Assembly: GCA_020633975.1 (NCBI GenBank)
Contig: JACKCR010000006.1
Location: 13,100-77,099 of the forward strand
Direction: 5' to 3'
DNA: 64,000 bases
Origin: Candidatus Eiseniibacteriota bacterium
GTDB taxonomy: Bacteria; Eisenbacteria; RBG-16-71-46; CAIMUX01
Shown: positions 14,416 through 58,949 of the stretch, in pieces
How the letters are laid out: each line of letters opens with the position of its first letter
Numbering within the stretch: position 1 is the stretch's first letter
The notes under the pieces: generated by a model
What the model saw: only the letters and a program-made list of their open reading frames with translations
What the model was told of the DNA's origin: nothing
The model's database searches: none
Made by a program: the position numbers and the translations under genes

Positions 14416-16134
14416 ATGTCCAAACGCTTCCCGGCCCCCAGTCTCCGTGCTCTCTGCCTCACTTTCGCTCTTCCGATCCTCGCTCTTCCGGCGCCTTTCC
14501 CCGGGGAGGTGCGGGCCGCGCTCCCCGATGGATTCGTCATCGAGAATGCGTTCCCCGGCGTCAACTTCGCTGTTCCGGTTGCGTTCGCGTTCCTGCCCGA
14601 CGGGAGAACTCTGGTTGCCGAGAAGTCAGGGTATGTGCGACTTGTCCTGGCGAATGGAACGCAAGCTCCGCTTCCGTTCCTGGATCTCACGGCGCCGACG
14701 TACAACAGCGGTGATCTCGGCCTGCTCGGCCTCGCGGTCGATCCCGACTTCGAGACGAACAGGTGGGTCTACGTCCTGTACACGGTCGATACGGGCGCAG
14801 ACGATCGGTACTCGCGCCTTGTACGGTACCAGGCGAGTCTCTCCGATCCGAACGTGGCGGACGTATCGACGAAGCAGGTCTTGATCGGCGATACGTGGCC
14901 GGAGGGGATTCCCACGCTGCACACCAGCCACTCGGTCTGCTCGATCCGGTTCGGGGAGGACAAGAGTCTCCTCATCGGACATGGCGATGGGGGGCGCTTC
15001 GAAGCGGTGGACGCCGGCGGACAGGATCCGGGTGGGTTCGGTCCAGGAAAGACGGATCCCGCAGAAGACATCGGCGCGTTCCGCGCACGTGCTGTCGTCA
15101 CGAGCATGGCCGGCAAGATCCTGCGGCTCGACAAGGAGACGGGACTGGGTCTTCCGTCGAATCCGTTCTGGGACGGGGATCCTGGATCGGATGCGTCTCG
15201 AGTTTGGGCCTACGGGCTTCGGAATCCGTTCCGCTTTTCGCTGAGGCCCGGCACGGGAAGTACCGATCCTGCGGATGGAGATCCCGGCACTCTCTACATC
15301 GGGGATGTCGGCTGGAATATCTGGGAGGAGGTCAACGTAGCCTCGACGGGCGGTACGAACTTCGGGTGGCCGTGCTGGGAGGGACCACTCAACAACTCTC
15401 TCTACCAGAACGTCGACGAGACGGCGGCCGGGAACGAGGACGTGCTCTGCGACGCGGGACTGAGCGGCGAGAACCCGTCCTCTGACTCGTTCCCTGTCGT
15501 GTGGTGGCACCATTCCAACCCGTCGTCCTCGAACCCGCCCGGACTCACGGCGCTCAGCGTGACGGGCGGCGTCTTCTACGAAGGTGGATCCTATCCGGCA
15601 GAGTACGTGGGCCGCTACTTCGTCGGCGCGTTCGTCCGCGACTGGATCCTCACCATGGACTTCGACGAGACCGACGCCTTCCTCCACCACTCGATCTTCA
15701 CCGATGTGGGAGACCATCCGGTGTACTTCGAGATCGACCCGGCCACCGGGGACGTCTGCTACGCCGCCATCTTCAACGGCACGATCAATCGGATCCGCTA
15801 TGAGGCTCCTGCCGACGCTCCGGCTCCGGTTGCGTCGGGTGCAACCGAACGGGTCCGCTGGAGCTCGGATGGCGCTCCGAACCCGTTCTCAGACCACACG
15901 GCACTCTCGTTCGTGCTCGAGAGGGAGCAGCTCACTTCGGTCGATGTGTTCGACTTGGAGGGGCGCCTCGTCGCGAACGCGCTAACCCAAGAAGCGAGGG
16001 CTGCGGGTACCTACCAGGTCACGTGGGACGGAATGGACGCCGACGGCAACGAAGCCGCGTCTGGCGTCTACTTCATGGTTCTTCGGTCGGCGAACGGAGG
16101 CGACACACGCAAGGTCGTCCTCGCGCGGAACTGA
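14416..16134 (+). CDS. PQQ-dependent sugar (glucose/sorbosone) dehydrogenase-like beta-propeller with a FlgD-Ig/T9SS-type C-terminal domain
   Basis: 572 aa with a signal peptide. LPDGFVIENAFPGVNFAVPVAFAFLPDGRTLVAEKSGYVRLV, GLLGLAVDPDF, HSVCSIRFGEDKSLLIGHGDGG and YGLRNPFRFS are typical of the soluble GSDH family. The last 84 aa (15880-16131) form the C-terminal domain. Confidence 0.8.
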   Translation: MSKRFPAPSLRALCLTFALPILALPAPFPGEVRAALPDGFVIENAFPGVNFAVPVAFAFLPDGRTLVAEKSGYVRLVLANGTQAPLPFLDLTAPTYNSGDLGLLGLAVDPDFETNRWVYVLYTVDTGADDRYSRLVRYQASLSDPNVADVSTKQVLIGDTWPEGIPTLHTSHSVCSIRFGEDKSLLIGHGDGGRFEAVDAGGQDPGGFGPGKTDPAEDIGAFRARAVVTSMAGKILRLDKETGLGLPSNPFWDGDPGSDASRVWAYGLRNPFRFSLRPGTGSTDPADGDPGTLYIGDVGWNIWEEVNVASTGGTNFGWPCWEGPLNNSLYQNVDETAAGNEDVLCDAGLSGENPSSDSFPVVWWHHSNPSSSNPPGLTALSVTGGVFYEGGSYPAEYVGRYFVGAFVRDWILTMDFDETDAFLHHSIFTDVGDHPVYFEIDPATGDVCYAAIFNGTINRIRYEAPADAPAPVASGATERVRWSSDGAPNPFSDHTALSFVLEREQLTSVDVFDLEGRLVANALTQEARAAGTYQVTWDGMDADGNEAASGVYFMVLRSANGGDTRKVVLARN

Positions 16135-23946: not shown

Positions 23947-24277
23947 TCGCGTCGAGCATAGGCGAGCTCGCGAGGCAAATCGAGTAGCTCTCGATCGCCC
24001 GAACGGATCTGCCCCGGGGCATCGGCCCTCGCCCAAAGCCGAACAGTTCTGCCTCCGCGGCTTCCGAACCATCGCGGTGCAAACGCACTGCATCTCGCCA
24101 AAGAGAACTCCAGTGCGCTGTCTCAGATGGCCTTGCGCAGTGACCGTCGAAACGGATCCACGTTGGCACTGCCATTGACCCTACTGCGGGCATGCGCCTG
24201 CTGACTCTCCTCACATGGCGCAACTTGGCTAACGAAGGAATCAGACGACCCTAGAGTCCATTGAAGGAGGAAGTCCC

Positions 24278-24649
24278 ATGCGTAAGCTTCTCGTTCTCTG
24301 TACGGCCGCGTGTGCGCTCATCGGCACGGCCGATTTCTCGAACGCGATCTGTCTCACCGGTGGTGGCTCGGCGACGTGCGGCTCCGGTATGTGCATGAGC
24401 AGCTCGCTCCGTGATATCGACGTGACCTGGGTAGGCCCCGGCGGTGCGCAGTGCTGCGACCAGATCACGATCTTCGTCGATGAAGGATGTGACGGTGGTT
24501 GGGCACAGCTCGACGTCGTCGACTGCAGCACGAGCTCGTACAGCTACTGCGGGAAGGCGAACACCGACTACAAGTTCAAGATCGTCTACTCGAAGAACGG
24601 ATCGCAGTCTGCGCCCGACATCATCACGAACTGCGTGAACTGCAACTAG
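24278..24649 (+). CDS. Small secreted cysteine-rich protein, function unknown
   Basis: 123 aa. GAAGGAGGAAG lies 5 nt before the ATG. Signal peptide MRKLLVLCTAACALIGTADFSNA. 10 Cys in about 100 mature residues, including CC and NCVNCN. The gene is visibly less GC-rich than its neighbours. Confidence 0.6.
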   Translation: MRKLLVLCTAACALIGTADFSNAICLTGGGSATCGSGMCMSSSLRDIDVTWVGPGGAQCCDQITIFVDEGCDGGWAQLDVVDCSTSSYSYCGKANTDYKFKIVYSKNGSQSAPDIITNCVNCN

Positions 24650-24810
24650 GTTTGATCGGGGCCTCGCGATCCCGATCGTGAGATGAGGCAAGGCAAGGAT
24701 GTCGGTGCCAAGAGAGGGGGTTACCGGCGGACTTGCCTTGCCTTCCCCATCGTGTGCTCGGCTGGAGTGCACGATCCGAATGCGTTGTGTCTGGAACGGA
24801 GCGGGTTCGG

Positions 24811-25284
24811 TCACGGATGCGAGGTCGATGTCCCGTCAGACGCCAGGCGCTCCACGAGCCGCTCGACCTCCGTCCGGAGGTGGGCGAGAGTCCGTTCCGG
24901 CGTGGCGATATCGAGGTCGTGGACCTCCCAGTACTCGACCCGCGCTTCCCAGTCTGGAAAGAGCTCCCTCATCAGAGGCCGGTGCTCACTCTCCTTCACT
25001 GCGACGACGTGGCTCGCGGCGCGAAAGTCGCTCGCCGAGGTTACGCGGGCCGGTCGGGCGTCGACCGCGACGGAGAGACGTCGACACTCTAGCGCCGTGT
25101 GCACCGACAGATTGCCGAGGTTTCTCGGGTCTGGTCGCAGCCCGCTGGAGTCGGCGTCCCACTCGAGTCCCCGCTCCGACGCGAGGTGGCGGAAGTACGC
25201 TTCTGCAAACCGACTCCGGTAGTAGTTCCCGGTGCAGAGAAAGAGCACCGATGGTCTCGTGCGTTCGTCAGTGGGATGTGGCAT
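24811..25284 (-). CDS. Low-molecular-weight protein-tyrosine phosphatase / ArsC-like family
   Basis: 157 aa with the P-loop VLFLCTGNYYRSR (CX5R-S) near the N-terminus. Confidence 0.8.
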   Translation of the reverse strand: MPHPTDERTRPSVLFLCTGNYYRSRFAEAYFRHLASERGLEWDADSSGLRPDPRNLGNLSVHTALECRRLSVAVDARPARVTSASDFRAASHVVAVKESEHRPLMRELFPDWEARVEYWEVHDLDIATPERTLAHLRTEVERLVERLASDGTSTSHP

Positions 25285-25327
25285 CCGCGGAGAGTAGCGT
25301 GGGGCGTTGGCTCGGAGCTAGTCCGCG

Positions 25328-26353
25328 TTACGCGGCGCGGGTCTGCGCGCGACTGCGAGCCGCCCGGATGAGCGCTTCGATGTTCTCGTCCGGGACCGCC
25401 CAGGGAACCTCGGGGCCTTGGTTGCTGAGGATGAACCCGGGCCCTGCTTCGGCGAGCACGCGTCGTGCTTCGAATTCCACACGCTCCGGACCCCAGTGGA
25501 TCAGCTTGAGATTGTTCAGGTTCCCCATGAGCGCCTGATTGCCGATCGATCGCCTGGCCTCTCCGGGTGGATCCTGCGATCCGATAAGGAACACTGCGAC
25601 AGGGAGATCGGCGAGATGCTTGAGGAACGGACTCGCGTCCCCGACGAGTTCGAGAGCAACGAGTCCGTCGACACGGCGGACGAACTCCCGGATCACCGGG
25701 ACTGCGTCCTGGACGAACGTCTTCTCGCGGAGGAGGGTTGCCGACGCGACACCTTCGGCCACGACCACGACGTGGCATCCCGCGGAGAGCTGCGCCTGAG
25801 CCCAACGCACGGTGTAGTCCATCATCCGCTCCATCAGGATCGGATAGAACTGGCGCCGAGCCTCTTCGTGCTCCACCAAGAGCCCGATCGACTTCCCCAT
25901 TCCCATGAGGAGGGAGTGGAGAGAGAAGGGCCCAATCACCGCGCCGACGACCAGCTTCTCGCCGCCGTACGTCTTGGCCAGTCGTTCTGCGTTGCGGAGA
26001 GTCTTGGCGAGATACGGGTGCGCCGTCGGATCCGGTATCGGGAGGTTCGGGATCTCCTCGTAGCGCTTGATGACCATTCCGCCCACGGACGGAGCGCCGT
26101 CGGGATGGAACGTGAGGGTGGAGCCCCAGCCGAGCACGTCCTGAACGACATGAGGGATGGCGAAGACGGCGTCCGGGTCGAACCGTTCGACGACTCGGCA
26201 CTGCCCCTCGAACGCGTGCGACGGGTCGCCGAAGTACTCGGTCAGAGGCATCCCCAAGAGCCGAGCCCCTTGCTGGAGGAGTACCGGCGCCACCGGGGCG
26301 GGGTCGATCGGGCGCATGTGGACGGCTTCGAGGATCCGCTCCAGAGAGTTCAT
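25328..26353 (-). CDS. Uroporphyrinogen-decarboxylase (URO-D) family protein, MtaA/CmuA-like methyltransferase subgroup
   Basis: 341 aa, TIM-barrel-sized. The N-terminal LERILEAVHMRPIDPAPVAPVLLQQGARLLG and GPFSL ... MERMMDY pattern is typical of URO-D-like corrinoid methyltransferases. Its ATG overlaps the upstream stop (ATGA). I could not confirm the zinc ligands by eye. Confidence 0.65.
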   Translation of the reverse strand: MNSLERILEAVHMRPIDPAPVAPVLLQQGARLLGMPLTEYFGDPSHAFEGQCRVVERFDPDAVFAIPHVVQDVLGWGSTLTFHPDGAPSVGGMVIKRYEEIPNLPIPDPTAHPYLAKTLRNAERLAKTYGGEKLVVGAVIGPFSLHSLLMGMGKSIGLLVEHEEARRQFYPILMERMMDYTVRWAQAQLSAGCHVVVVAEGVASATLLREKTFVQDAVPVIREFVRRVDGLVALELVGDASPFLKHLADLPVAVFLIGSQDPPGEARRSIGNQALMGNLNNLKLIHWGPERVEFEARRVLAEAGPGFILSNQGPEVPWAVPDENIEALIRAARSRAQTRAA

Positions 26354-28041
26354 GCCGCTCTCCTTCCTGAGGCCAGCGTGGCAATTCGCCCTGAACGGGA
26401 GACGAGGTGCCTCACCAAGCGGATCGCTTCGTACGGACTCCGGCCGACGCCGTCGGCTCCGTACCGCTTTCTCATGTCCGGGTCGACGATGAACGGCGCG
26501 CCACCCGCGATTACTCCGATGTCCCGGCGGCCCATCTCGACCAGCGCCTGCTTGAGATCCGGAATCGCTTTCGCCGTGTGGAGGAGTAGAGACGACACGC
26601 CGATCACGTCCGCCTTCTCGCGAATCGCGGTCTCGACGAACGTTTCGTTCGAGACGCTGAGACCGAGGTCGATCACGCGGAAGCCAGCGGCGCGCATCGA
26701 AGTGGCGACGAGACGCCTTCCGAGGTCGTGGTAGTCCTCGTGAGCGTTCCCCAAGACGACGACCGGCGCGTGGGCATAGAACGACTCGGGTACGAGTGGT
26801 TCGATCGCCGTGACCGCGTGCTGCAGGATCCGGCCGTTCCGGTAGTAGGTCTCGAGAGGTTCGTCCCGGCGGGTCTGTCCGAGGAAGACGTCCATCGATG
26901 CCTCGGCCAGGGCCTGGAGGAGTACGGCCGGAGGATGTTCGGATGAGATCGCGTTCGCGACGGCTCGTTCGCCCAGATCGGGAAGATCGTCGCGGAGTGC
27001 GCGAACCATGTCGTCCCGGAAGCGACGAACATCCGTGGCGATCTGACCGCCACCGGAGCGACGGATGGCGTGGTCCACGGCGTCACATTCGTTCGACAGC
27101 CCGTCGACGAGGGCGGCGGCCGATTGTTCCACCCACTCGCCATGTCGTCTCAACCAGTCGAATCCGTCCTGGATCGCTACCTGCGAGTGGGCGAGTGTCT
27201 CGACGTCACGGGTGACCCCGACGAGTACCTCGGTGTCGGACGAAATCCCCTGTGCCGTTTCTTCGAGCGTTGCGACGGCCTCGCCGGCGTGGTTGAGCGA
27301 AGTGCGGTTGGTCTCGAACAGTCCCTGGAAGGAGCCGAGGCTCTCGCCGATCTGGGAAACTTCGTTGTCGATCTCGTCGCTGAGAGACTGTGTCTTTCGC
27401 GCGAGTTCGCCGACTTCCTGAGCGACGACCTTGAACCCCGCTGCTTGCTGTCCGGCTCGGTTGGCCTCGATCCGCGCGTTGAGCGAGAGGAGGTGGGACA
27501 TCTCGGCGACGTCCGCGATCTTGGTCGCCGTTTCCTGGATCGACGACACCCGTTCTTCGAGTGTCCCGAACGCAGCCTCGAGGTCTCGGATCGTGGTCTC
27601 GAGGCTGCGGATCTCCTCCAGCGCCTTTCCGATCGCCGTGACCGTTTCGTTCGCGTGGACGTCGAGACGCCCTGTCGTTCCGACGAGACTCTGCGTCACC
27701 GCTGCGAATCCACCTCCGCTCGCGGCCGAGGTCATGGAGTGGATGCGGTCGAGGAGTGCAGCGTTCGAGGTCGCGGCATCCTGAGCGAGAGAGAAGAGCT
27801 GGTGGACGCGATGGGCGCGTTCGAAGATCGGGGCGAATCGAGCCGAAGGATCTTGGGCGACGGACGGACCGGACGCGCGGGCTCGGTTCGGCGTGGCGGA
27901 GCTGTCCGCGCCGACTCGGGGCACGACGGCCACCGAGTTCGCCCGCGCCGACGGCACGGCAGATCGTGTCGCGCTCTCGGCGGAACTACACAGTTCGCTC
28001 GCGTTCCCCGCGGGTTTGTCGGGCACGAGCTTGGAGCGCAA
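26350..28041 (-). CDS. Cytoplasmic fusion of an MCP-signalling-like coiled coil with a cobalamin (B12)-binding domain
   Basis: 563 aa with no TM helix. Centre: VAEMSHLLSLNARIEANRAGQQAAGFKVVAQEVGELARKTQ, a diverged MCP hairpin-tip motif. C-terminus: VVVLGNAHEDYHDLGRRLVATSMRAAGFRVIDLGLSV ... ADVIGVSSLLL ... VIAGGAPF, a Rossmann-type B12-binding domain with DxHxxG. The TTG start is uncertain. Confidence 0.7.
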   Translation of the reverse strand: MRSKLVPDKPAGNASELCSSAESATRSAVPSARANSVAVVPRVGADSSATPNRARASGPSVAQDPSARFAPIFERAHRVHQLFSLAQDAATSNAALLDRIHSMTSAASGGGFAAVTQSLVGTTGRLDVHANETVTAIGKALEEIRSLETTIRDLEAAFGTLEERVSSIQETATKIADVAEMSHLLSLNARIEANRAGQQAAGFKVVAQEVGELARKTQSLSDEIDNEVSQIGESLGSFQGLFETNRTSLNHAGEAVATLEETAQGISSDTEVLVGVTRDVETLAHSQVAIQDGFDWLRRHGEWVEQSAAALVDGLSNECDAVDHAIRRSGGGQIATDVRRFRDDMVRALRDDLPDLGERAVANAISSEHPPAVLLQALAEASMDVFLGQTRRDEPLETYYRNGRILQHAVTAIEPLVPESFYAHAPVVVLGNAHEDYHDLGRRLVATSMRAAGFRVIDLGLSVSNETFVETAIREKADVIGVSSLLLHTAKAIPDLKQALVEMGRRDIGVIAGGAPFIVDPDMRKRYGADGVGRSPYEAIRLVRHLVSRSGRIATLASGRRAA

Positions 28042-28208
28042 GTTCGCGAAGGGCCTGCGTGATGTCCATCAGGATACGGGGCACGGCCGAGCCTCCATCC
28101 TATGGGTGCGGGTCTACCTACCCGCTTCGGAAGGTCCGGAGGTCACCTTGAGAAGATTGGCCGAAGACCCTCGTCAGGTGAGGGATTCCCCCAAGTTCCG
28201 ACTCCGAG

Positions 28209-28610
28209 CTACGCCTCCCGACTCCGGGCGTCGAGCGGGGCGTTCGAGTTCGCTCCGAGGCGCAACCCGAGCGATACACAGGGGACGATCGAAGCCAGGA
28301 ACACGATGTGGTACCAAAGGGGGTACATCCCTCGGTTCACCAGCTGGGCCACGATCCCGGTGAGGAGGAGGAGAAGGGTGACGGCACGGGGGGCCCGCCC
28401 CAGGCCGCCGCTCAGACGGCCCGCGATCCAGCCCGCGAGGATCGAGTAGACGGCGCGCAGCACGAGGAACACGGTGAGCATCGCCACCGTCAGAGGTTCA
28501 CCGTCCACACCGAACGAGTCGGGGCTCACCTGGAGTGCGCCCATGTAGATCACGGTGTCGAGGAGGCCCCAGACGATCCATGGGACGAGGATGGCGGCGA
28601 CAACACGCAT
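28209..28610 (-). CDS. Small integral membrane protein (four predicted helices)
   Basis: 133 aa and strongly hydrophobic (VAAILVPWIVWGLL, MLTVFLVLRAVYSILAGWIAG, LLLLLTGIVAQLV, YHIVFLASIVPCV). Confidence 0.55.
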   Translation of the reverse strand: MRVVAAILVPWIVWGLLDTVIYMGALQVSPDSFGVDGEPLTVAMLTVFLVLRAVYSILAGWIAGRLSGGLGRAPRAVTLLLLLTGIVAQLVNRGMYPLWYHIVFLASIVPCVSLGLRLGANSNAPLDARSREA

Positions 28611-28651
28611 GAATCAGATCCTCCTGTCGAGTGCCGTAGGAAACGGGCTCT

Positions 28652-29176
28652 TCAGTCCAGCGGCCAGTTCTCTGTCTTGCAGCGCTTCGGTGTGATGAAG
28701 GGCGCGGCGGCCTCCATCAGTCGATACCCGAGTTTCCACAGCGGGGAGATACTACCCTGTTCGACGATCCTCTTGAGGGACTGAGTGATGAACTTCGCGC
28801 CGCCCCGCATGTCCTTCTCCGTGCGGCTACCCGCAGGAGCCCCGTCGACCGTGAGGGTGAACATCACACCTCCTTCGGTGGGCTCGAGGTCGTAGGTGAC
28901 GACGCACTCGCCGTCTTCGTAGCGTGTGAAGCGGAAGGTGTGGGAGAACCGTCTAGGCTCGTCGTACTCGAGGATCGTGCCGACGACGCTCGTGTAGTTC
29001 CCGGACCGGTCCCGCATGGCCATCTTCTCTCCGGGGGCCAACCGGTTCGCGTTGAGCCACGCGTTGAAGAAGCAGCCCTGGGCCTCGTCCGTCTTCGTGA
29101 TCTCCCGCCACACCGCTTCGGGTGTCCCCGCGATGAAGATTTGGGCGACGATCCGGTCAGTTCCTGGCTGGGACAT
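28652..29176 (-). CDS. SRPBCC (AHSA1/START-like) family protein
   Basis: 174 aa. IFIAGTPEAVWREITK ... RFSHTFRF ... VTYDLEPTEGGVMFTLT is the pattern of Aha1-like SRPBCC proteins. It overlaps the upstream ArsR gene by 20 nt, a common pairing. Confidence 0.7.
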   Translation of the reverse strand: MSQPGTDRIVAQIFIAGTPEAVWREITKTDEAQGCFFNAWLNANRLAPGEKMAMRDRSGNYTSVVGTILEYDEPRRFSHTFRFTRYEDGECVVTYDLEPTEGGVMFTLTVDGAPAGSRTEKDMRGGAKFITQSLKRIVEQGSISPLWKLGYRLMEAAAPFITPKRCKTENWPLD

Positions 29177-29540
29177 CCGCGGCCTCCTCGGCGTTGTCGG
29201 CTGGGTTCGGAGCCGTCTCGATCCGACGCTTCAGCTCGAGCGCGGCCGCTCCGAAGAGCGCTCCGTACTCGTCGGTCCACCTCTGGTGGATCCGCTGGAT
29301 CGGCACGGGATTGAGATAGAGACGCCGCTCCCGCCCGTCCTTTCTCGAGACGACCAGTCCCGCCTCCGAGAGCACCGCGAGGTGCTTCTGGACGGCGATT
29401 CGCGACACCTGGAAGCGGTCAGCCACGTCGACCACACGCTGCCCTGGGTTGGCCTTCAGGATGTCCAGGATTCGCCGACGGCTCCGGTGCGCGAGCGCAT
29501 GGAACAGGAGGTCCGTGTCGTCGTCTCGAAAAGTAACCAT
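29157..29540 (-). CDS. ArsR/SmtB-family transcriptional regulator
   Basis: Internal ATG of ORF 29157..29756 at 29540. LFHALAHRSRRRILDILKANPGQRVVDVADRFQVSRIAVQKHLAVLSEAGLVVSRKDGRERRLYLN is a winged helix-turn-helix of the ArsR type. Confidence 0.85.
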   Translation of the reverse strand: MVTFRDDDTDLLFHALAHRSRRRILDILKANPGQRVVDVADRFQVSRIAVQKHLAVLSEAGLVVSRKDGRERRLYLNPVPIQRIHQRWTDEYGALFGAAALELKRRIETAPNPADNAEEAADVPARN

Positions 29541-29550
29541 ATGGTTACTT
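29531..29550. promoter_or_regulatory. Perfect 20-bp palindrome over the ArsR start codon (candidate autoregulatory operator)
   Basis: AAGTAACCAT|ATGGTTACTT at 29531-29550 is its own reverse complement. The arsR ATG is the complement of 29538-29540. Confidence 0.6.
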
Positions 29551-29774
29551 ATAGTGCATGGGGCCGCGGCGGGGCAAGAGGCTTTTCGAGACGGGCCGAC
29601 TCGGGCCGGATAGGGCGGCGGCGACGGCGCGGGCGGGGCACTATCCGCTTCTCCAAGAGTGAGATGCACTATGTCGCATCCCGGCCCCGGACCCGTTGAC
29701 TGGCAGGCCCCAGGCCGGCGATCATCATTCGCACTGTTCCACTCCGAGTTGCCCACTCCTTATAGGAGGTCTCC

Positions 29775-32393
29775 ATGCTCCGCCGGCTCCAGCTCACGGG
29801 AATCGCTGCCGTCGTCTTGCTCGCCGGAAAGGGGATCGCCGCCCCGGAGCCCGTTGCGCTCGACCCGGTCGTGGTGGATCTGCTCACCGAGGTGTCCCAG
29901 GACAGCCTGTTCAACGCGGTCCAGACGCTCTACGAGTTCCAGACGCGGAACACGGCCTCGGACACCCTGTCGACGACGACCGGTGTCGGTGCGGCTCGTC
30001 GTTGGGTGAGGGAACGGTTCGAGCAATATGGAGCGTTCGGGAACTACTTCGACTGGGACGATGACGTCTGCAACGTGTCGCAGACCTTCCGAAACGTCCT
30101 CGGCACGTTCCCCGGTAGCCAGCCGAACCGCGTCATCATGGTGGGCGGGCACCTCGACAGTCGCACCGTGGACCTCTGCAACACCACGGCGTCCCAGCCC
30201 GGGGCGAACGATGACGCCAGCGGTACCGCCTGTCTCCTGGAAGTCGCTCGTCTTCTTCCGGCTCTCGATCTCGAGACCACGGTGGTGCTGCAAGCGTTCA
30301 CCGGGGAGGAGCAGGGGCTCCTCGGGTCCACCTACTACTCCGCGTTTGCGCGGGCGAACGACCTCGACATCGAAGCGATGATCGCGAACGACATCATCGG
30401 AAACATCGATGGGTGTCCCGGCGTGCCCGACTGTGGCGGTGGGCCCACGACCGATCAGGACTCGCTCAGCATCCGCGCATTTTCCGGGGACCCGGCGACG
30501 GGCGCGTCGCGTCAGCTCGCGCGGCTCACGAAGATGATCGGCGAGGGCTATGTAGACGAAATGACGGTGCGGCTCCAGCCCGCGATCGATCGCCCCGGGC
30601 GGGGAAGCGACCACATTCCGTTCTATGAAGACGGCTTTCCTTCGATCCGTTTGATGGAGACGCTGGAGTACACGCTCCAGCAGCACAACGCGAACGACAC
30701 GATCGGCAACATGGAGTTCTCCTACTTCCGGCGGAACGTGCTCATCAACCTCGCCATCATCGCGAACCTCGCCCAAGCGCCGGAGTCACCGGGCACCCCG
30801 CAGGTATGGGACCTGGGAACCGGAGGTGGGATCCGCGTCGAGTGGCCAAGCGTCGCGGGCGATGTCGCGGGCTATCGGATCGCGTACCGCTATGTCGATC
30901 AGGGAGACACGCTCTACTGGGCCGATGTCGTCGATGCCGGAGCCGCGACGACGTTCGACGTGCTTGGTCTGGTCGACGATGTTTCGCTCGCCGTGTCCGT
31001 GTCCGCCTACGATGCGGATGGTCACGAGTCGCTCTTCACGGAGGAGCAGCTCGTCACGCCCGGCACCGTACCTCACGCGCCATCGGGGTTCAGTGCTGTC
31101 TCGCTGCCGGATTGGGTCGAGCTGACCTGGCCGCCTGCGCAGGAACTCGACCTCGACTACTTCCGGGTGTTCCGGAGCCTCAGCCCCGACGTTGGATTCG
31201 TCGCGATCGACTCGGTGGGGGCGAGTACGACCGAGTATCAGGATGCGTCTGCACTCCCGGGCATCGACTACTACTACCGGATCTCGTCCGTCGACCTCGA
31301 TGGACTCGAGAGTCCGGAAACGCAATCCGAGAAGGGCCGGCTCCAGGAACTCGCGCCGGGGCTCCTCGTCGTGGACGGCACGCGGAACGGCGCAGGCGGG
31401 ATCGGCAACCCGAACGATGCGGATGTCGACGCTTACTACGCGACCCTACTGAGCGGCGCCCCCGTGCTCGCTCATTGGGATTGGACGACGCAGTTCGACA
31501 ACTCCGGCATTCCGCTCACGGACGCGGACATGGGCCGGTACGAGACCGTGTTCTTCCATTGCGATCTCAGGAACAACGGGTCGATCGACCAGGTCACGAC
31601 CGAGCTCCGCGAGTACGTTGAGAACGGTGGACAGCTCTTCCTCTGTGGTTGGGGGCTCAAAGGGAACCTCACCGATGCCACCGGGGATCTCACAGACTTT
31701 GGTCCCGGTGACTTCTTCTATGACGTCCTCAAGGTGCAGTCCGTTCGTACCACGCCCAACAGCGAGAGCGACTTCGAAGGCGCAGACCCGCTCGACAGCT
31801 CCTATCTCGCAATCGATGTCGACACGGGGAAGTGGCCGTTCCTCGGCGGGAACCTCAACTTCATGGATGCGTTCTTGGGCGGACTCGTAGATGGAGCCGC
31901 TCCGCTGCTGGGGTATCGATCCTCGTCCGCTCCTCCAGGCCCGAATGATGGCTATCCCGTTGGCCTCAAGTGGCCGGTAGTATCGCCGCGTGTGATCGTG
32001 GTCGACGTTCCGCTCTACTTCATTCAGACCGCGGATGCGCAGTCCGTCGTCGATCAGGCCCTGCGCGAGTTTGGGTACGGAGCGTCCGCCGGGGCTCCCG
32101 TGGTTCCGGTCGAAAGCGCCCTTCTCTTCTCGGCACGGCCGAACCCGGCGCAAGGGGAGACCGAGTTCTCCTTCTACCTGCGGCAGGAGACGACCGTGTC
32201 GCTCGAACTCTTCGACGTCCAAGGGCGGGCCGTGCGAGTGTTGCAGCGTCCGGACGTTCTCGAGAGCGGACGTCATGCGATCGAGTGGAACGGCCGTGAC
32301 GATCGCGGTCGACGTCTCCCGTCCGGGATGTACTATGCGACTCTGCGCGTCGGCTCCGAGTGGCAGACGCGCGAAGTGACGTTGCTCCCGTAG
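29775..32393 (+). CDS. Secreted M28-family metallopeptidase with two Fn3-like modules, an unassigned region and a FlgD-Ig/T9SS-type C-terminal domain
   Basis: 872 aa with a signal peptide. VIMVGGHLDS ... GANDDASGTACLLEVARLL ... FTGEEQGLLGSTYY ... GSDHIPFYEDGFPS are the M28 metal-ligand motifs. The C-terminal domain is at 32136-32390. Confidence 0.85.
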   Translation: MLRRLQLTGIAAVVLLAGKGIAAPEPVALDPVVVDLLTEVSQDSLFNAVQTLYEFQTRNTASDTLSTTTGVGAARRWVRERFEQYGAFGNYFDWDDDVCNVSQTFRNVLGTFPGSQPNRVIMVGGHLDSRTVDLCNTTASQPGANDDASGTACLLEVARLLPALDLETTVVLQAFTGEEQGLLGSTYYSAFARANDLDIEAMIANDIIGNIDGCPGVPDCGGGPTTDQDSLSIRAFSGDPATGASRQLARLTKMIGEGYVDEMTVRLQPAIDRPGRGSDHIPFYEDGFPSIRLMETLEYTLQQHNANDTIGNMEFSYFRRNVLINLAIIANLAQAPESPGTPQVWDLGTGGGIRVEWPSVAGDVAGYRIAYRYVDQGDTLYWADVVDAGAATTFDVLGLVDDVSLAVSVSAYDADGHESLFTEEQLVTPGTVPHAPSGFSAVSLPDWVELTWPPAQELDLDYFRVFRSLSPDVGFVAIDSVGASTTEYQDASALPGIDYYYRISSVDLDGLESPETQSEKGRLQELAPGLLVVDGTRNGAGGIGNPNDADVDAYYATLLSGAPVLAHWDWTTQFDNSGIPLTDADMGRYETVFFHCDLRNNGSIDQVTTELREYVENGGQLFLCGWGLKGNLTDATGDLTDFGPGDFFYDVLKVQSVRTTPNSESDFEGADPLDSSYLAIDVDTGKWPFLGGNLNFMDAFLGGLVDGAAPLLGYRSSSAPPGPNDGYPVGLKWPVVSPRVIVVDVPLYFIQTADAQSVVDQALREFGYGASAGAPVVPVESALLFSARPNPAQGETEFSFYLRQETTVSLELFDVQGRAVRVLQRPDVLESGRHAIEWNGRDDRGRRLPSGMYYATLRVGSEWQTREVTLLP

Positions 32394-40200: not shown

Positions 40201-41510
40201 TCTTGCTGGTCGTGCTCGGACTCCTGGCGCTCGCGCTCCTCGGCATGCCGCTGTTCACGGTGATGGGCCTCGGGTCTCTCATCGCGTTCGGGAGCGAGGA
40301 CATCTCGTCGTCCGCGGTGATCTCCGAGATGACACGGCTCGCGACGTCTCCTGTCCTCGTCTCGATCCCGCTCTTCACGTTTGCGGGGTATCTGTTCGCG
40401 GAAGGGGGGACTGCAGCGAGGCTGGTGCGACTGTCCCGCGCCGCATTCGGGTGGATCCCGGGCGGTCTTGCCATCGTGTCGCTCGTGACGTGCGCGGTGC
40501 TCACCGCCTTCACCGGGGCGAGCGGAGTGACGATCGTCGCCGCGGGCGGGCTCCTCATGCCCGCGCTGCTCCAGGAACGCTACTCGGAGCGGTTCTCGCT
40601 CGGTCTCCTCACGACTTCTGGGAGTCTCGGCCTTCTCTTTCCGCCCAGTCTTCCGCTCATTCTCTATAGCTACGTGGCGTCCTCGGCGGCGGGCGGACTG
40701 CTGCTGGATCCCGCATCCGCGCCTACCGTGGATCGCCTCTTCGTCGCCGGGCTCCTTCCTGGAATCTTCCTCATCGTCGCGCTCTCGTTCCTCTGCGTAC
40801 GGGAAGGCGGGCAACGGAAGATCGCGCGAACGCCGTTCCATTGGTCGGAGGTGTTTCCGGCCCTCCGCGGCGCGCTCTGGGAGATTCCGCTCCCGATCAT
40901 CGTATTGGGCGGCATCTACGGCGGAAAGCTGACGGTGATCGAGGCCGCTTCCGTCACGGCGCTCTATGCCTTCGTTTCCCAGGTCTTCATCTACCGGGAT
41001 GTCAGCCTGACCCGTCTCCCCAAGATCGCGGCCGAGAGCATGACTTTGGTCGGCGGCATCCTCGTCATCCTGGGCGCGGCTCTCGGGCTGACGAACTACC
41101 TGATCGACGCCGAGGTGCCGCTCCAGCTGCTCGAGTGGGTTCGCGGGACCATCGACAACCGGCTCGTCTTCCTGCTCGTGCTCAACGCGTTTCTGTTAGT
41201 CGTCGGTTTCCTCATGGACATCTTCTCGGCGCTCATCGTCGTGGTGCCGCTCATCGTTCCACTGGCGCAGGAGTACGACGTCAACCTGGTCCATCTCGGA
41301 ATCATCTTCCTGACGAACCTGGAGATCGGATACTCTACTCCCCCGGTCGGGCTGAATCTCTTCATCTCGTCCTATCGCTTCGGGAAGCCCGTGGTGGAAG
41401 TCTATCGCGCGTCGATCCGATGGCTCGTCGTGCTCCTCATCGCGCTTCTCGTCATCACCTATGTTCCCGAGCTCTCGCTCATTCTGCTGAAGTGGATGTC
41501 GATTCCCTGA
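40197..41510 (+). CDS. TRAP transporter large permease (DctM family)
   Basis: 437 aa, polytopic. IPLFTFAGYLF ... TGASGVTIVAAG ... GLLFPPSLPLILY ... GIYGGKLTVIEAASV ... YSTPPVGLNLF are characteristic DctM motifs. 4-nt overlap with the dctQ-like gene. Confidence 0.9.
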   Translation: MILLVVLGLLALALLGMPLFTVMGLGSLIAFGSEDISSSAVISEMTRLATSPVLVSIPLFTFAGYLFAEGGTAARLVRLSRAAFGWIPGGLAIVSLVTCAVLTAFTGASGVTIVAAGGLLMPALLQERYSERFSLGLLTTSGSLGLLFPPSLPLILYSYVASSAAGGLLLDPASAPTVDRLFVAGLLPGIFLIVALSFLCVREGGQRKIARTPFHWSEVFPALRGALWEIPLPIIVLGGIYGGKLTVIEAASVTALYAFVSQVFIYRDVSLTRLPKIAAESMTLVGGILVILGAALGLTNYLIDAEVPLQLLEWVRGTIDNRLVFLLVLNAFLLVVGFLMDIFSALIVVVPLIVPLAQEYDVNLVHLGIIFLTNLEIGYSTPPVGLNLFISSYRFGKPVVEVYRASIRWLVVLLIALLVITYVPELSLILLKWMSIP

Positions 41511-46743: not shown

Positions 46744-48369
46744 ATGAAACTAGGCATCGGGGCCAAACTCGGCATCTACTTTGGACTGTCGACACTCGCG
46801 ACGATTGGTGTCGTCGGGATCGTGTCCCATCTCCTACGCGATACTTCGACTTCCTGGCGAGTCCTGAACGACTCGACCAAGCAGAACACACAGGCGTCGG
46901 TCGGCCTGATCGAGAGCTTCGCCAAGCTCCAAGGCGTGACGCTCCGGATCATCCGGGAGGAGGATCCGGATGTTCTCGAATCCCTGGTCGACGAGTACTC
47001 CTCGTCGGTCAGTGCGCTTCGAGACATGATCGCGGATGAAGGAGCGGAAGCGGCTGACATCGCCGAGTCTCTCGAGGCACTCGACGCAGCCAACTCCAAG
47101 GCGACGGAGTCCGTCCTGCTTGGAAGAGGCGCACAAGCGAGCCAGATCTTCATCGAGCAGTCGAACCCTGTGTTCGAGGGGCTGCTCCATGAGATCGCGA
47201 GTCTCCAAGACGACCGGCTCGTTTCTCTAGAGGCGAGCGCCGCGGCAGAGCGCGCGGGGATTCTCAAGGCGGAGAAGTCCGTTTGGATCGGGGTCGGCGT
47301 GTTCCTCTTGATCCTAACCGCGGCCGGAATGTTCCTCGTGCGCACGGTGTCGCGGTCACTCCGCACCATCGGCGAGCGGATCCGAGCCGTCGCCGAAGGA
47401 GACGGGGACCTGACGCAAAGGCTCCCCGTGACCTCGCAAGACGAAATCGGGGACATATCGGCGGCACTCAACGCGTTCCTCGAGAAGCTGCAGAACGTGA
47501 TGCGGCAGGTTTCGGCGACGACCCTTCGGCTCAACGAGGCGAGTGGTCGATTGGCGGACAACTCGGCCGGTCAGAGCGAGCGTGTCCAGTCCCAGCGCCG
47601 TGAAGCGGAGCAGGTGGCAGCGGCGATCGAGGAGATGTCGGCCACGGTCGGCGAGGTCTCGCGGAGCGCTAGCTCTGCGTCCGAGGCCTCACGTCTGGCT
47701 ACCGAAACGGCACGGAGTGGTGGTTCGGTCGTCGAGACGGCCGTGTCCCAGATGCGTCGACTCGCGTCCTCTGTCGAACGGAGCGCGGAGCAGGTCGAAG
47801 CTCTCGGAAGGCAGTCCGATCGCGTAGGCGAGATCATCGCCGTGATCGACGAGATCGCCGAGCAGACGAACCTCCTCGCACTCAACGCCGCGATCGAGGC
47901 GGCCCGGGCTGGAGAGCAAGGACGGGGGTTCGCGGTCGTCGCGGACGAAGTCCGGAAGCTCGCGGAACGGACCGGACGTGCCACCCAGGAGATCGCCGAA
48001 GTGATCGAGGAGATCCAGGGCGAGACGAAGAAGGCCGTTGCGGTGATGCAGGAAGGGACCGGCTTTGCGACGGAGGGAGTGACTGCAACGGAGCAGGCGG
48101 GAGAAGCGCTCGAAAAGATCATTCAGATGGCCGACGAGGTCGGAAGCATGGTCAACCAGATCGCTGCTGCCACATCGGAGCAGGCCGCGTCGACCGACCA
48201 GATCAACACGAACGTCGAGAGCATGGCGAACGTGACGTCTGAGGCTGCGTCTGGAGCCGAAGAGGCCGCGCACTCCGCGTCTGAGCTCTCGGGTCTCGCG
48301 GCGGAACTGGAAGAACTTCTCTCGCACTTCCGACTGGAGTCGGAGTCGATCCACCGTAGAGCGGCGTAG
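46744..48369 (+). CDS. Methyl-accepting chemotaxis protein (four-helix-bundle sensor, HAMP, signalling domain)
   Basis: 541 aa with two TM helices. HAMP ([42 protein letters not shown]) and the canonical tip [41 protein letters not shown]. Confidence 0.92.
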
Positions 48370-58799: not shown

Positions 58800-58949
58800 G
58801 CTCGTGCCTCGTGACGGATGGATCGGGACGGGAAGAGGGTAGCAGAACCCTTCGTGCGAAAAAGTGCGCTCGTCATTGCCCCCTTCCTCGGTCGTTTGCG
58901 CGTAGGGACCGAGACCCCGATGACGATCCGCCAGAAGGAGGAGATTCTG

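What the first reader, a model, noticed from the sequence alone, without database searches (positions are those of the whole stretch)
25328..28041. Soluble chemoreceptor-like corrinoid protein coupled to an MtaA/URO-D-like partner
Seen in the sequence:
- The 563-aa product of 26350..28041 has no TM helix.
- Its centre carries a diverged MCP hairpin-tip motif, EMSHLLSLNARIEANRAGQQAAGFKVVAQEVGELA. Compare the canonical [32 protein letters not shown] in the bona fide MCP at 46744..48369.
- Its C-terminus is a B12-binding Rossmann domain with the DxHxxG loop (EDYHDLG) and GVSSLL.
- Its stop overlaps (ATGA) the start of a URO-D-family protein (25328..26353).
- An LMW phosphatase follows 43 nt later on the same strand.

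Established knowledge:
- DxHxxG marks base-off/His-on cobalamin binding.
- Corrinoid proteins pair with URO-D-family methyltransferases (MtaC/MtaA type).
- B12-binding domains also act as light sensors (CarH type).

Inference: the corrinoid state (methylation, redox state or photolysis) may be read out through a chemoreceptor-type signalling hairpin. I do not know of a characterised example of this architecture and operon.
Basis: partly seen in the sequence, partly recalled or inferred. Interest (0 to 1): 0.7.

Follow-up and report, generated by a model that had tools for sequence, protein, structure and literature searches.

The report
Vitamin-B12-binding soluble chemoreceptor with methyltransferase-like partner
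This is a rare, uncharacterised two-gene unit in which a membrane-free chemotaxis-receptor stalk is fused to a vitamin-B12-binding protein and always paired with an MtaA-like enzyme, which suggests bacteria can steer using the chemical state of a bound B12 cofactor.

Summary
ORF 26350..28041(-) encodes a soluble protein. It has an MCP signalling hairpin (Pfam MCPsignal 64 bits) whose tip is nearly invariant. This is followed by a complete corrinoid-protein module: a four-helix cap plus a Rossmann domain carrying the full DxHxxG-x41-SxL-x27-GG motif. Its stop codon overlaps (ATGA) the start of a URO-D-family gene, 25328..26353(-). That gene's model is closest to MtaA (TM 0.87), but the MtaA zinc ligands are replaced.

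The fusion and the pairing are conserved in all 25 loci examined that extend past the fusion gene. These come from Eisenbacteria, Hydrogenedentes, Planctomycetota, Chloroflexota, Firmicutes, Thermoleophilia, Calditrichaceae and KSB1 MAGs. The family is rare: about 32 full-length representatives among 1.84 billion. No third gene recurs, and the LMW phosphatase is a lineage-specific neighbour. The CarH photoreceptor signature is absent, and so are CheR/CheB methylation motifs.

Sister URO-D clades pair with standalone corrinoid proteins next to Roadblock/GAF proteins, DUF1638, RACo and histidine kinases.

Most likely this is a cytoplasmic chemoreceptor whose input is the state of its bound corrinoid, set by the partner. 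I found no paper describing it. It is a new variant of a known kind, and the mechanism is inferred.

The parts
26350..28041 (-). Fusion gene: soluble MCP-hairpin / corrinoid protein, 563 aa from the TTG. An alternative GTG start at 27933 gives the 527-aa database version.
   Evidence: ORF. Pfam MCPsignal plus B12-binding. About 59 homologous clusters share the architecture. AF2 model.
27856..28041 (-). Unconserved, low-complexity N-terminus (aa 1-62), predicted disordered. It may be partly untranslated.
   Evidence: pLDDT below 50 for aa 1-62. No conservation in A1. Candidate starts listed.
27721..27849 (-). Family-specific conserved N-terminal helix (aa 65-107, motif LSLAxDAxxSNxAL), followed by a GGGF break.
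   Evidence: Helix 65-107 in the model. D88 is invariant and S92/A95 nearly invariant. Translation checked.
27058..27708 (-). MCP signalling hairpin: descending helix aa 112-195, turn 196-200, ascending helix 201-328.
27400..27492 (-). Hairpin tip (aa 184-214), the most conserved part of the stalk.
   Evidence: N188, A189, F203, V205, V206, A207 and L213 are invariant. Mean majority fraction is 0.74, against 0.43-0.44 for the arms. Translation.
26794..27048 (-). Four-helix cap of the corrinoid module (aa 332-416).
   Evidence: Helices 332-350, 354-366, 371-392 and 396-416. Foldseek alignments of ~210 columns to MttC, 4JGI and MtmC. Aligns to the PF02607-positive cap of standalone sister proteins.
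26395..26763 (-). B12-binding Rossmann domain (aa 427-549).
   Evidence: Pfam 85.7 bits. PDB 1y80 at 4e-15. Mean conservation 0.71.
26719..26736 (-). DxHxxG loop (D436-Y-H438-D-L-G441), which supplies the lower axial His ligand.
   Evidence: Invariant in 24 of 24 sequences. Translation.
25328..26353 (-). MtaA-fold URO-D-family partner, 341 aa. Its start overlaps the fusion's stop.
   Evidence: Pfam URO-D 148 bits. Model pLDDT 94.5, best fold match MtaA 4ay7 at TM 0.87. Immediately downstream in every locus checked.
26350..26353 (-). ATGA stop/start overlap, implying translational coupling.
   Evidence: The same 4-nt or 14-nt overlaps occur in L001, L003, L005, L028 and L029.
24811..25284 (-). 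LMW phosphotyrosine-phosphatase / ArsC-like gene. It is a lineage-specific neighbour, not part of the conserved unit.
   Evidence: Pfam LMWPc 41.5 bits. Found downstream only in L006.

Best explanation
The two genes form a self-contained cytoplasmic sensing unit. The fusion protein is a soluble chemoreceptor. Its MCP hairpin tip docks into CheA/CheW signalling complexes. Its C-terminal corrinoid-protein module sits at the tip-distal end of the stalk, where the input domains of other receptors sit, and carries a His-on cobalamin. The co-translated MtaA-fold partner docks on the upper face of that cobalamin and sets its state, most likely by reversible methyl transfer between a small-molecule methyl donor or acceptor and the cobalt. 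Switching between methyl-Co(III) (His-on, capped) and Co(I)/Co(II) repositions the cap and Rossmann domains. That change travels down the helical stalk and alters kinase control, so the cell swims according to the availability of the partner's substrate.

Shown: the architecture, the conserved tip, the intact B12 motif, the MtaA fold, strict gene pairing and co-evolution.

Inferred: cobalamin binding, CheA/CheW coupling, methyl transfer, and the identity of the signal.
For: - Domains pass curated thresholds.
- The tip is the best-conserved part of the stalk. The residues at the positions I recall as Tsr's N381 and F396 (positions from memory, not checked here) are invariant here. The tip region is 38% identical to the window's genuine MCP.
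- Distant members have fully canonical tips, such as [33 protein letters not shown].
- The complete B12 motif is invariant.
- The cap plus Rossmann module is closest to methyltransferase corrinoid proteins: MttC, 4JGI (TMt 0.78), MtmC and MetH.
- The partner's fold is closest to MtaA.
- The partner lies directly downstream in 20 of 20 loci with sequence, and also. Starts usually overlap.
- Identities of the two proteins co-vary across loci (Pearson r = 0.98, Spearman rho = 0.79).
- No other gene recurs.
- The same URO-D clade pairs with homologous standalone corrinoid proteins. The next clade out sits with the corrinoid reactivation factors RACo and DUF1638 and with histidine kinases. So real Co(I) methyl chemistry and signalling outputs recur around this module.
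- A genuine MCP lies in the window, and MCP genes lie next to the fusion in L015 and L016.
Against: - No cheA or cheW lies in the window or next to any fusion, and I could not scan whole genomes for them.
- No conserved CheR/CheB methylation consensus is present.
- The partner lacks MtaA's Zn ligands: H-x-C...C is replaced by E235-x-V237...P314. Its chemistry and substrate are therefore unknown, and it could be non-catalytic.
- No reductive activator (RamA/RACo/DUF1638) and no second methyltransferase accompany the fusion pairs.
- Nothing here shows that cobalamin is bound.
Confidence: 0.5

Rival explanations
1. Redox or oxygen sensor for energy taxis. The Co(I)/Co(II)/Co(III) state of the bound corrinoid reports cytoplasmic redox potential or oxidants. 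The partner only protects or resets the cofactor, for example by methylating Co(I).
For: - Soluble cofactor-based receptors (HemAT, Aer, Aer2, TlpD) typically sense O2 or redox; this rests on general knowledge.
- A protoglobin-MCP lies directly upstream of the fusion in L015, and a protoglobin lies near the sister pair in L023.
- The absence of methylation sites resembles Aer-type receptors.
- The partner has no thiol-activating Zn site.
Against: It does not explain why a highly conserved MtaA-fold protein (46-95% identity, more conserved than the fusion) is obligatorily co-translated. No redox partner such as a ferredoxin or RACo is linked to the fusion pairs.
Confidence: 0.15
2. B12-based photoreceptor for phototaxis or photophobic responses. 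Light cleaves the Co-C bond of bound methyl- or adenosyl-cobalamin, and the partner re-alkylates the cofactor to reset the receptor in the dark.
For: B12-binding domains serve as light sensors fused to varied outputs (CarH, photocobilins, PMC11796333, PMC10979010). Any protein-bound alkylcobalamin is photolabile (general knowledge). A resetting enzyme would solve the irreversibility problem of CarH-type sensors (inference).
Against: - The GxxW and EH elements of the photoreceptor signature GxxW/EH/GxxH/GxxxP are absent. In the cap only L375 is invariant; no W is conserved, and EH occurs in only 2 of 24 sequences.
- Fold matches to CarH-like and photocobilin domains (TMt 0.39-0.51) are weaker than to methyltransferase corrinoid proteins (0.70-0.78).
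- Re-alkylation would need Co(I), yet no activator is linked.
Confidence: 0.12
3. A metabolic corrinoid methyltransferase pair, of the O-demethylase MT I / corrinoid-protein or MtsA/MtsB type. In this reading the MCP-like coiled coil is only a dimerisation or scaffolding element, or tethers the enzyme to receptor arrays, and transmits no signal.
For: A corrinoid protein next to a URO-D-family methyltransferase is the standard arrangement in methyl-transfer pathways. NCBIfam best hits are MtbC/MtgC and MtaA/CmuA, and the fold hits agree.
Against: - The part of the stalk under strongest constraint is exactly the CheA/CheW/trimer-contact tip, not the arms. That is unexpected for a mere coiled coil.
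- No MT II, methyl-acceptor enzyme or activator is linked, and the neighbourhoods are unrelated to each other.
- The Zn site needed for known URO-D-type methyltransferases is missing.
Confidence: 0.1
4. Sensor of intracellular cobalamin availability (apo versus holo), giving taxis or regulation according to B12 supply. The partner would be a corrinoid-handling or loading factor.
For: In the Hydrogenedentes locus L001 the pair lies next to cobW, and CbiM/CbiQ cobalt transport genes lie 6 kb away. URO-D-fold barrels bind tetrapyrroles (general knowledge).
Against: The B12-related neighbours are seen in only one lineage. No B12 riboswitch is nearby. A tight His-on site of the enzyme type suggests a permanently bound cofactor (inference).
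Confidence: 0.08

Closest known systems
Corrinoid protein / URO-D-family methyltransferase pairs of methyl-transfer pathways (MtaC-MtaA, MtsB-MtsA, the corrinoid proteins MttC/MtmC/MtgC, and the D. hafniense cobalamin-binding protein 4JGI)
   Same: The cap plus Rossmann corrinoid module carries the full DxHxxG-SxL-GG motif. The best sequence and fold matches are to these proteins. The adjacent partner has the MtaA fold.
   Different: - An N-terminal ~260-aa MCP signalling hairpin is present.
- The partner lacks the H-x-C...C zinc site.
- No MT1/MT2 third component or RamA-type activator is linked.
- Scores are far below the NCBIfam equivalog cut-offs.
Soluble cofactor-based chemoreceptors (HemAT globin-coupled sensor, Aer/Aer2 PAS-FAD/haem, DcrH hemerythrin, and TlpD with a C-terminal CZB domain)
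   Same: A membrane-free MCP hairpin is joined to a cofactor-binding sensor domain. As in TlpD, the sensor is C-terminal to the hairpin (from general knowledge). As in Aer, no methylation consensus is present.
   Different: The cofactor is a corrinoid. The sensor is an enzyme-type corrinoid protein. A dedicated, co-translated enzyme-like partner is obligatory. I found no description of this in the searchable literature.
B12-dependent photoreceptors and regulators (CarH/LitR, AerR/PpaA, photocobilins, photoglobin-B12 proteins)
   Same: A B12-binding cap plus Rossmann module serves as the input of a signalling protein.
   Different: The CarH signature residues are absent. Fold similarity is weaker. 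The output is an MCP hairpin rather than a DNA-binding or GGDEF domain. The URO-D partner has no counterpart in those systems.
Tm14 (PDB 3g67), the soluble Thermotoga maritima chemoreceptor that consists of a hairpin only
   Same: The hairpin from the GGF motif (aa ~110) onward aligns almost without gaps to Tm14 residues 21-155.
   Different: Tm14 has no sensor domain. Here an extra N-terminal helix and a C-terminal corrinoid module are added.

Membership tests
Methyl-accepting chemotaxis protein (MCP signalling domain, PF00015) | Profile match above the curated threshold | tested here: met
   64.2 bits against a gathering score of 34.6, aa 142-286. Distant family members score 69-112 bits.
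Methyl-accepting chemotaxis protein (MCP signalling domain, PF00015) | Conserved hairpin-tip consensus ([31 protein letters not shown]) that contacts CheA/CheW and forms trimers of dimers | tested here: met
   N188, A189, F203, V205, V206, A207 and L213 are invariant. The tip is the conservation maximum of the stalk. It is 38% identical to the window MCP and aligns to TM1143, Tm14 and Tsr.
Methyl-accepting chemotaxis protein (MCP signalling domain, PF00015) | Long antiparallel helical hairpin | tested here: met
   AF2 helices 112-195 and 201-328 with a turn at 196-200, pLDDT about 75-88 in the arms. This is a monomer model, so the dimeric four-helix bundle was not modelled.
Methyl-accepting chemotaxis protein (MCP signalling domain, PF00015) | CheR/CheB methylation sites ([ASTG][ASTG]xx[EQ][EQ]xx[ASTG][ASTG]) | tested here: not met
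   No position carries the consensus in more than 4 of 24 sequences.
Methyl-accepting chemotaxis protein (MCP signalling domain, PF00015) | Functional coupling to CheA/CheW; che genes present in the same genome | not testable with these tools
   The 43 of 53 called window ORFs that I scanned include one genuine MCP but no cheA or cheW. Whole MAGs could not be scanned. Eisenbacteria MAGs are reported to carry chemotaxis genes (bioRxiv 10.1101/2025.11.25.690425).
Methyltransferase-type corrinoid proteins (MtaC/MtmC/MttC/MtgC) | DxHxxG-x41-SxL-x26-28-GG base-off/His-on motif | tested here: met
   D436, H438, G441, S483, L485/L486 and G513-G514 are invariant or nearly so, with spacing of 41 and 27 residues.
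Methyltransferase-type corrinoid proteins (MtaC/MtmC/MttC/MtgC) | Four-helix cap (B12-binding_2) preceding the Rossmann domain | tested here: inconclusive
   Four helices are predicted, and ~210-column Foldseek alignments to MttC and 4JGI give TMt 0.70-0.78. Pfam PF02607 is not detected in the fusion. It is detected in the alignable standalone sister protein of L022.
Methyltransferase-type corrinoid proteins (MtaC/MtmC/MttC/MtgC) | NCBIfam equivalog or subfamily score cut-offs | tested here: not met
   67-70 bits against cut-offs of 215-370.
Methyltransferase-type corrinoid proteins (MtaC/MtmC/MttC/MtgC) | Binds a corrinoid and cycles between Co(I) and methyl-Co(III) | not testable with these tools
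   Requires purified protein and spectroscopy.
MtaA/CmuA methylcobamide methyltransferases (URO-D superfamily) | URO-D TIM-barrel fold, closest to MtaA | tested here: met
   Pfam URO-D 148 bits. Model pLDDT 94.5. 4ay7 gives TM 0.87/0.88 and rmsd 2.5 A, against about 0.8 and 3.2 A for HemE.
MtaA/CmuA methylcobamide methyltransferases (URO-D superfamily) | Zinc ligands H-x-C...C for thiol activation | tested here: not met
   MtaA LHICG aligns to LELVG (E235, V237), and PGCGIAP aligns to QGPEVPW (P314). Of the 93 clusters at >=37% identity, 67 match all three motifs PH[VI][VIA] / E-x-VG / QGPE and 22 more match two of them. The ~30% clade mostly keeps H-x-(C/A)G and GCE.
MtaA/CmuA methylcobamide methyltransferases (URO-D superfamily) | NCBIfam subfamily cut-off (TIGR01463 / PRK06252) | tested here: not met
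   80-83 bits against cut-offs of 235-244.
Uroporphyrinogen decarboxylase HemE | HemE equivalog score and catalytic Asp | tested here: not met
   TIGR01464 scores 47 bits against a cut-off of 303. The FSD Asp of 3cyv aligns to His68.
CarH-type B12 photoreceptors | Light-response signature GxxW / EH in the cap (PMC11796333) | tested here: not met
   No conserved W or EH in aa 330-426 across 24 sequences.
CarH-type B12 photoreceptors | Closest structural neighbours are CarH-like domains | tested here: not met
   CarH-like and photocobilin entries rank 24th and lower with TMt 0.39-0.51, behind MttC, 4JGI and MetH.

The most novel reading that the evidence does not exclude
The pair is one output variant of a wider, undescribed class of corrinoid-based sensory modules. 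The class consists of a corrinoid protein plus a Zn-less MtaA-fold protein, in which the methylation or ligand state of protein-bound cobalamin is itself the signal. The module is wired to a chemoreceptor hairpin here, and to Roadblock/LC7, GAF or histidine-kinase partners in sister clades. The fusion would then be a chemoreceptor that accepts methyl groups on cobalt rather than on glutamates, which would link C1 or methyl-group metabolism directly to motility.
Probability: 0.3. Interest if true: 0.85.

Novelty: new variant of a known kind. Interest (0 to 1): 0.7.

Why it matters
Known cytoplasmic chemoreceptors sense through haem, FAD, iron or zinc. Known B12 sensors are light-dependent transcription factors or riboswitches. 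A chemoreceptor that reads the state of an enzyme-type corrinoid, with a dedicated MtaA-like protein writing that state, would be a new sensory principle. It would also be a new non-catalytic use of methyl-cobalamin chemistry.

It would give a direct route from methyl-group or redox metabolism to behaviour in several poorly known, uncultured phyla. The two genes are compact and self-contained, so they can be tested by expression in a heterologous host. If the input proves to be light or a small molecule, the module could also be used as a biosensor.

Tried and rejected
- **LMW phosphatase as a third component:** rejected. It is present only in the closest relative, L006.
- **Any conserved third gene (che genes, RamA/RACo, MT1/MT2):** none found by all-against-all clustering of ORFs from 21 loci or in the Pfam-annotated neighbourhoods.
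- **B12 riboswitch or other RNA element:** no Rfam hit in the window.
- **Promoter and terminator scans of 24000-29000:** nothing found.
- **CarH-type photoreceptor:** signature absent.
- **HemE function for the partner:** rejected on score, on the Asp-to-His substitution, and on the fold ranking.
- **MtaA-type thiol methyltransferase:** rejected because the Zn ligands are missing.
- **CheR/CheB adaptation sites:** not found.
- **Literature:** seven searches that could have found an MCP-B12 or corrinoid/URO-D signalling system returned no description. The library lacks most subscription journals, so this is not proof of absence.
- **First partner structure job:** It was redone with alignment A4.
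- **Last context look-up (P0209):** hit a 1.3-kb contig and was uninformative.


Full report
**1. Observation**

The three ORFs exist as described: 26350..28041(-) 563 aa, 25328..26353(-) 341 aa, and 24811..25284(-) 157 aa.

Pfam places MCPsignal on aa 142-286 of the first protein (E 1.8e-17, 64.2 bits, gathering score 34.6) and B12-binding on aa 427-540 (E 2.8e-24, 85.7 bits). The second protein matches URO-D at 148 bits and the third matches LMWPc at 41.5 bits.

The fusion has no transmembrane segment. Its highest 19-residue hydropathy mean is 1.08, against 2.37 for the genuine HAMP-MCP at 46744..48369.

The quoted tip and DYHDLG motifs translate at 27400..27492 and 26719..26736. The B12 signature is complete at canonical spacing: DxHxxG-x41-SxL-x27-GG.

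The fusion's TGA overlaps the partner's ATG (ATGA), and an AAGGAG lies 8 nt upstream of that ATG. The phosphatase starts 43 nt after the partner's stop.

The only uncertainty is the fusion's start codon. The first ~62 residues are unconserved and predicted disordered, and the database copy starts 36 residues later.

**2. Anatomy**

The AlphaFold model was built from a 24-sequence family alignment (mean pLDDT 75.8). It shows:

- a family-specific helix, aa 65-107;
- a GGGF break;
- a descending helix (112-195), a turn (196-200) and an ascending helix (201-328), roughly 18 heptads per arm;
- a four-helix cap, aa 332-416;
- a Rossmann domain, aa 427-549.

Taken alone, the hairpin finds the T. maritima receptors TM1143 (E 7e-10) and Tm14, as well as Tsr. 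It is 38% identical over 101 residues to the window's own MCP.

Conservation along the stalk is uneven. The majority-residue fraction is 0.74 at the tip core and 0.43-0.44 on the arms. N188, A189, F203, V205, V206, A207 and L213 are invariant. More distant members carry fully canonical tips. No CheR/CheB methylation consensus is conserved.

The C-terminal ~210 residues match methyltransferase corrinoid proteins best. This holds by sequence (1y80, MttC 7xcn, 4jgi, MtmC 3ezx) and by fold (MttC, and 4jgi at TMt 0.78). CarH-like and photocobilin domains match less well (TMt 0.39-0.51). The published CarH light-response signature GxxW/EH (PMC11796333) is absent: in the cap only L375 is invariant and no W or EH is conserved.

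**3. The partner**

Its model is very confident (pLDDT 94.5). It is closest to methylcobalamin:CoM methyltransferase MtaA (4ay7, TM 0.87-0.88, rmsd 2.5 A), ahead of true uroporphyrinogen decarboxylases (TM about 0.8).

NCBIfam ranks MtaA/CmuA-type models first, but far below their cut-offs. HemE scores only 47 bits against a cut-off of 303.

In the alignment to MtaA, the zinc ligands H-x-C...C are replaced by E235-x-V237...P314. The catalytic Asp of HemE aligns to His68.

These substitutions are shared by most of the 93 clusters at >=37% identity. Of these, 67 match all three motifs (PH[VI][VIA], E-x-VG, QGPE) and 22 more match two of the three. The next clade out, at about 30% identity, mostly keeps MtaA-like H-x-(C/A)G and GCE.

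So the partner has the MtaA fold but does not meet a defining feature of MtaA. Its chemistry is unknown.

**4. Conservation and distribution**

A word-indexed search found about 59 clusters with the same MCPsignal plus B12-binding architecture. They carry only generic names such as 'cobalamin-dependent protein' or 'methyl-accepting chemotaxis protein'.

An exhaustive profile search of 1.84 billion representatives found about 32 full-length members. Below them come fragments, standalone corrinoid proteins and ordinary MCPs. The family is therefore real but rare.

Genomic loci come from MAGs of Eisenbacteria, Hydrogenedentes, Planctomycetota, Chloroflexota/Anaerolineaceae, Firmicutes (Limnochordales and a spore-former), Thermoleophilia, Calditrichaceae and KSB1. 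Protein-level hits also come from Omnitrophica.

In 20 of 20 loci with downstream sequence, the URO-D partner follows immediately. The same holds in four further contexts, including the most divergent subgroup. Start and stop usually overlap.

The identities of the two proteins to the window copies co-vary across loci (Pearson r = 0.98, Spearman rho = 0.79). The partner is the more conserved of the two (45-95% against 29-86%).

Clustering all ORFs from 21 loci found no other recurrent gene. The phosphatase recurs only in the 86%-identical Eisenbacteria relative. Neighbourhoods are otherwise unrelated and contain no che genes.

The 43 of 53 called window ORFs that I scanned include one genuine MCP and no cheA or cheW. 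No Rfam element occurs in the window.

**5. Wider family context**

The same Zn-less URO-D clade also pairs with standalone corrinoid proteins of 216-279 aa. These share the fusion's characteristic motifs: LGNxxGDxHxLGR, DLGLSV, VSALLLHTA and GGAPF. The pairs are flanked by:

- Roadblock/LC7 and DUF4388 proteins and a GAF protein in L022;
- two Roadblock/LC7 proteins, a protoglobin and DUF1638 in L023.

The next clade out keeps the His/Cys ligands. It is followed by a DUF1638-HisKA-HATPase-REC protein in L025, and by RACo plus a PAS histidine kinase and response regulator in L026.

DUF1638 and RamA/RACo-type proteins are linked to reductive reactivation of corrinoids (PMC5764234, PMC12478193).

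The fusion therefore looks like a pre-existing corrinoid-protein/URO-D pair that acquired an N-terminal MCP hairpin. Related pairs repeatedly sit next to signalling proteins.

**6. Most likely mechanism (confidence about 0.5)**

I propose a cytoplasmic chemoreceptor whose input is the state of its own bound cobalamin.

- The tip engages CheA/CheW. This is inferred from tip conservation.
- The corrinoid module sits at the tip-distal end of the stalk, where other receptors carry their sensor.
- The co-translated MtaA-fold partner docks on the cobalamin's upper face and sets its state, most plausibly by reversible methyl transfer with an unknown small molecule.
- The resulting cap and Rossmann rearrangement is transmitted down the stalk.

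The architecture, motif integrity, fold assignments, pairing and co-evolution are shown. Cofactor binding, Che coupling, methyl transfer and the stimulus are inferred.

Points against the model:

- no che genes were seen nearby, and whole genomes were not scanned;
- no methylation sites are conserved;
- the partner has no Zn site, so its substrate is unknown and it may not be catalytic;
- no activator accompanies the fusion pairs.

**7. Rivals**

- **Redox/O2 energy-taxis sensor (0.15).** This is supported by analogy to Aer and HemAT and by protoglobin neighbours. It does not explain the obligatory enzyme-like partner.
- **Photoreceptor with an enzymatic reset (0.12).** This is disfavoured by the missing CarH signature and the fold ranking, but it is not excluded, because alkylcobalamins are inherently photolabile.
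- **Purely metabolic methyltransferase pair with a structural coiled coil (0.10).** This is disfavoured because constraint is concentrated on the signalling tip and no pathway partners are linked.
- **B12-availability sensor (0.08).** B12-related neighbours occur in only one lineage.

**8. Comparison with known systems and novelty**

The unit works like a soluble cofactor-based chemoreceptor (HemAT, Aer, TlpD). It contains the parts of a corrinoid methyltransferase pair (MtaC/MtaA type).

It passes the MCP domain tests apart from methylation sites. It passes the B12-motif test. It fails the MtaA zinc-site test, the HemE test and the CarH-signature test.

Seven literature searches that could have found an MCP-B12 fusion or a corrinoid/URO-D signalling module returned none. 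The library lacks most subscription journals, so this is not proof of absence. No curated NCBIfam model covers either protein.

I rate it a new variant of a known kind: a chemoreceptor with a new type of input module and an obligatory enzyme-like partner.

The most novel reading still open is that protein-bound cobalamin methylation is a general signalling currency, wired to MCP, kinase or Roadblock outputs. That would approach a new category (probability about 0.3).

Noticed in passing
L015:491-2122 (Anaerolineaceae MAG), upstream of the fusion at L015:3959-5440: A protoglobin plus MCPsignal protein (HemAT-like globin-coupled sensor) lies just upstream of the B12-MCP fusion, so two soluble cofactor-based receptors sit side by side.
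   Followed up: partly
L022:6254-9725 and L023:6003-10370: In the sister systems a standalone corrinoid protein pairs with the same Zn-less URO-D clade. L022 is flanked by DUF4388-Roadblock/LC7 and GAF proteins. L023 is flanked by two Roadblock/LC7 proteins, a protoglobin and DUF1638. This suggests other signalling outputs for the same module.
   Followed up: partly
L025:7390-11523 and L026:7357-13049: A more distant URO-D clade keeps the MtaA-like His/Cys ligands and also pairs with a corrinoid protein. In L025 it is followed by an 829-aa DUF1638-HisKA-HATPase-REC fusion. In L026 it is followed by RACo plus a PAS histidine kinase and a response regulator.
   Followed up: partly
L027:10001-12507: In this Limnochordales-like contig the URO-D partner is split into two ORFs (169 and 165 aa), and the fusion's C-terminus is frameshifted (P0054). 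This is either a pseudogenised copy or an assembly error.
   Followed up: no
window 24278-24649 (+): A 123-aa cysteine-rich ORF with a hydrophobic N-terminus and no Pfam match lies on the opposite strand just downstream of the phosphatase. Its codon-position GC is unusual (gc1 0.47, gc3 0.81).
   Followed up: no
window 28209-29756 (-): An ArsR-type HTH regulator, an AHSA1/SRPBCC protein and a small membrane protein lie directly upstream of the fusion on the same strand. Together with the ArsC-like LMW phosphatase downstream, this may be an unrelated stress or arsenic-type cluster into which the pair is inserted.
   Followed up: partly
window 14416-16134, 29775-32393, 58818-61499: Several large secreted enzymes (GSDH-like, peptidase M28, sortilin-like) end in FlgD_ig or Por_Secre_tail domains. 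This suggests T9SS-type C-terminal sorting signals in this Eisenbacteria-like genome.
   Followed up: no
window 41459-42613 (-): A 384-aa ORF with atypical codon-position GC (gc1 0.83, gc3 0.66) and no Pfam match. It is doubtful as a gene.
   Followed up: no
L001:6715-7848 and L001:15856-17557: In Hydrogenedentes the pair sits beside a cobW-family gene, with CbiM/CbiQ cobalt-transport genes about 6 kb away. This B12/cobalt context is not seen in other lineages.
   Followed up: partly
L029:3430-8961: The most divergent fusion subgroup (P0204) lies directly downstream of spore-germination genes (GerA, GerAC, spore permease) in a Firmicute contig.
   Followed up: no
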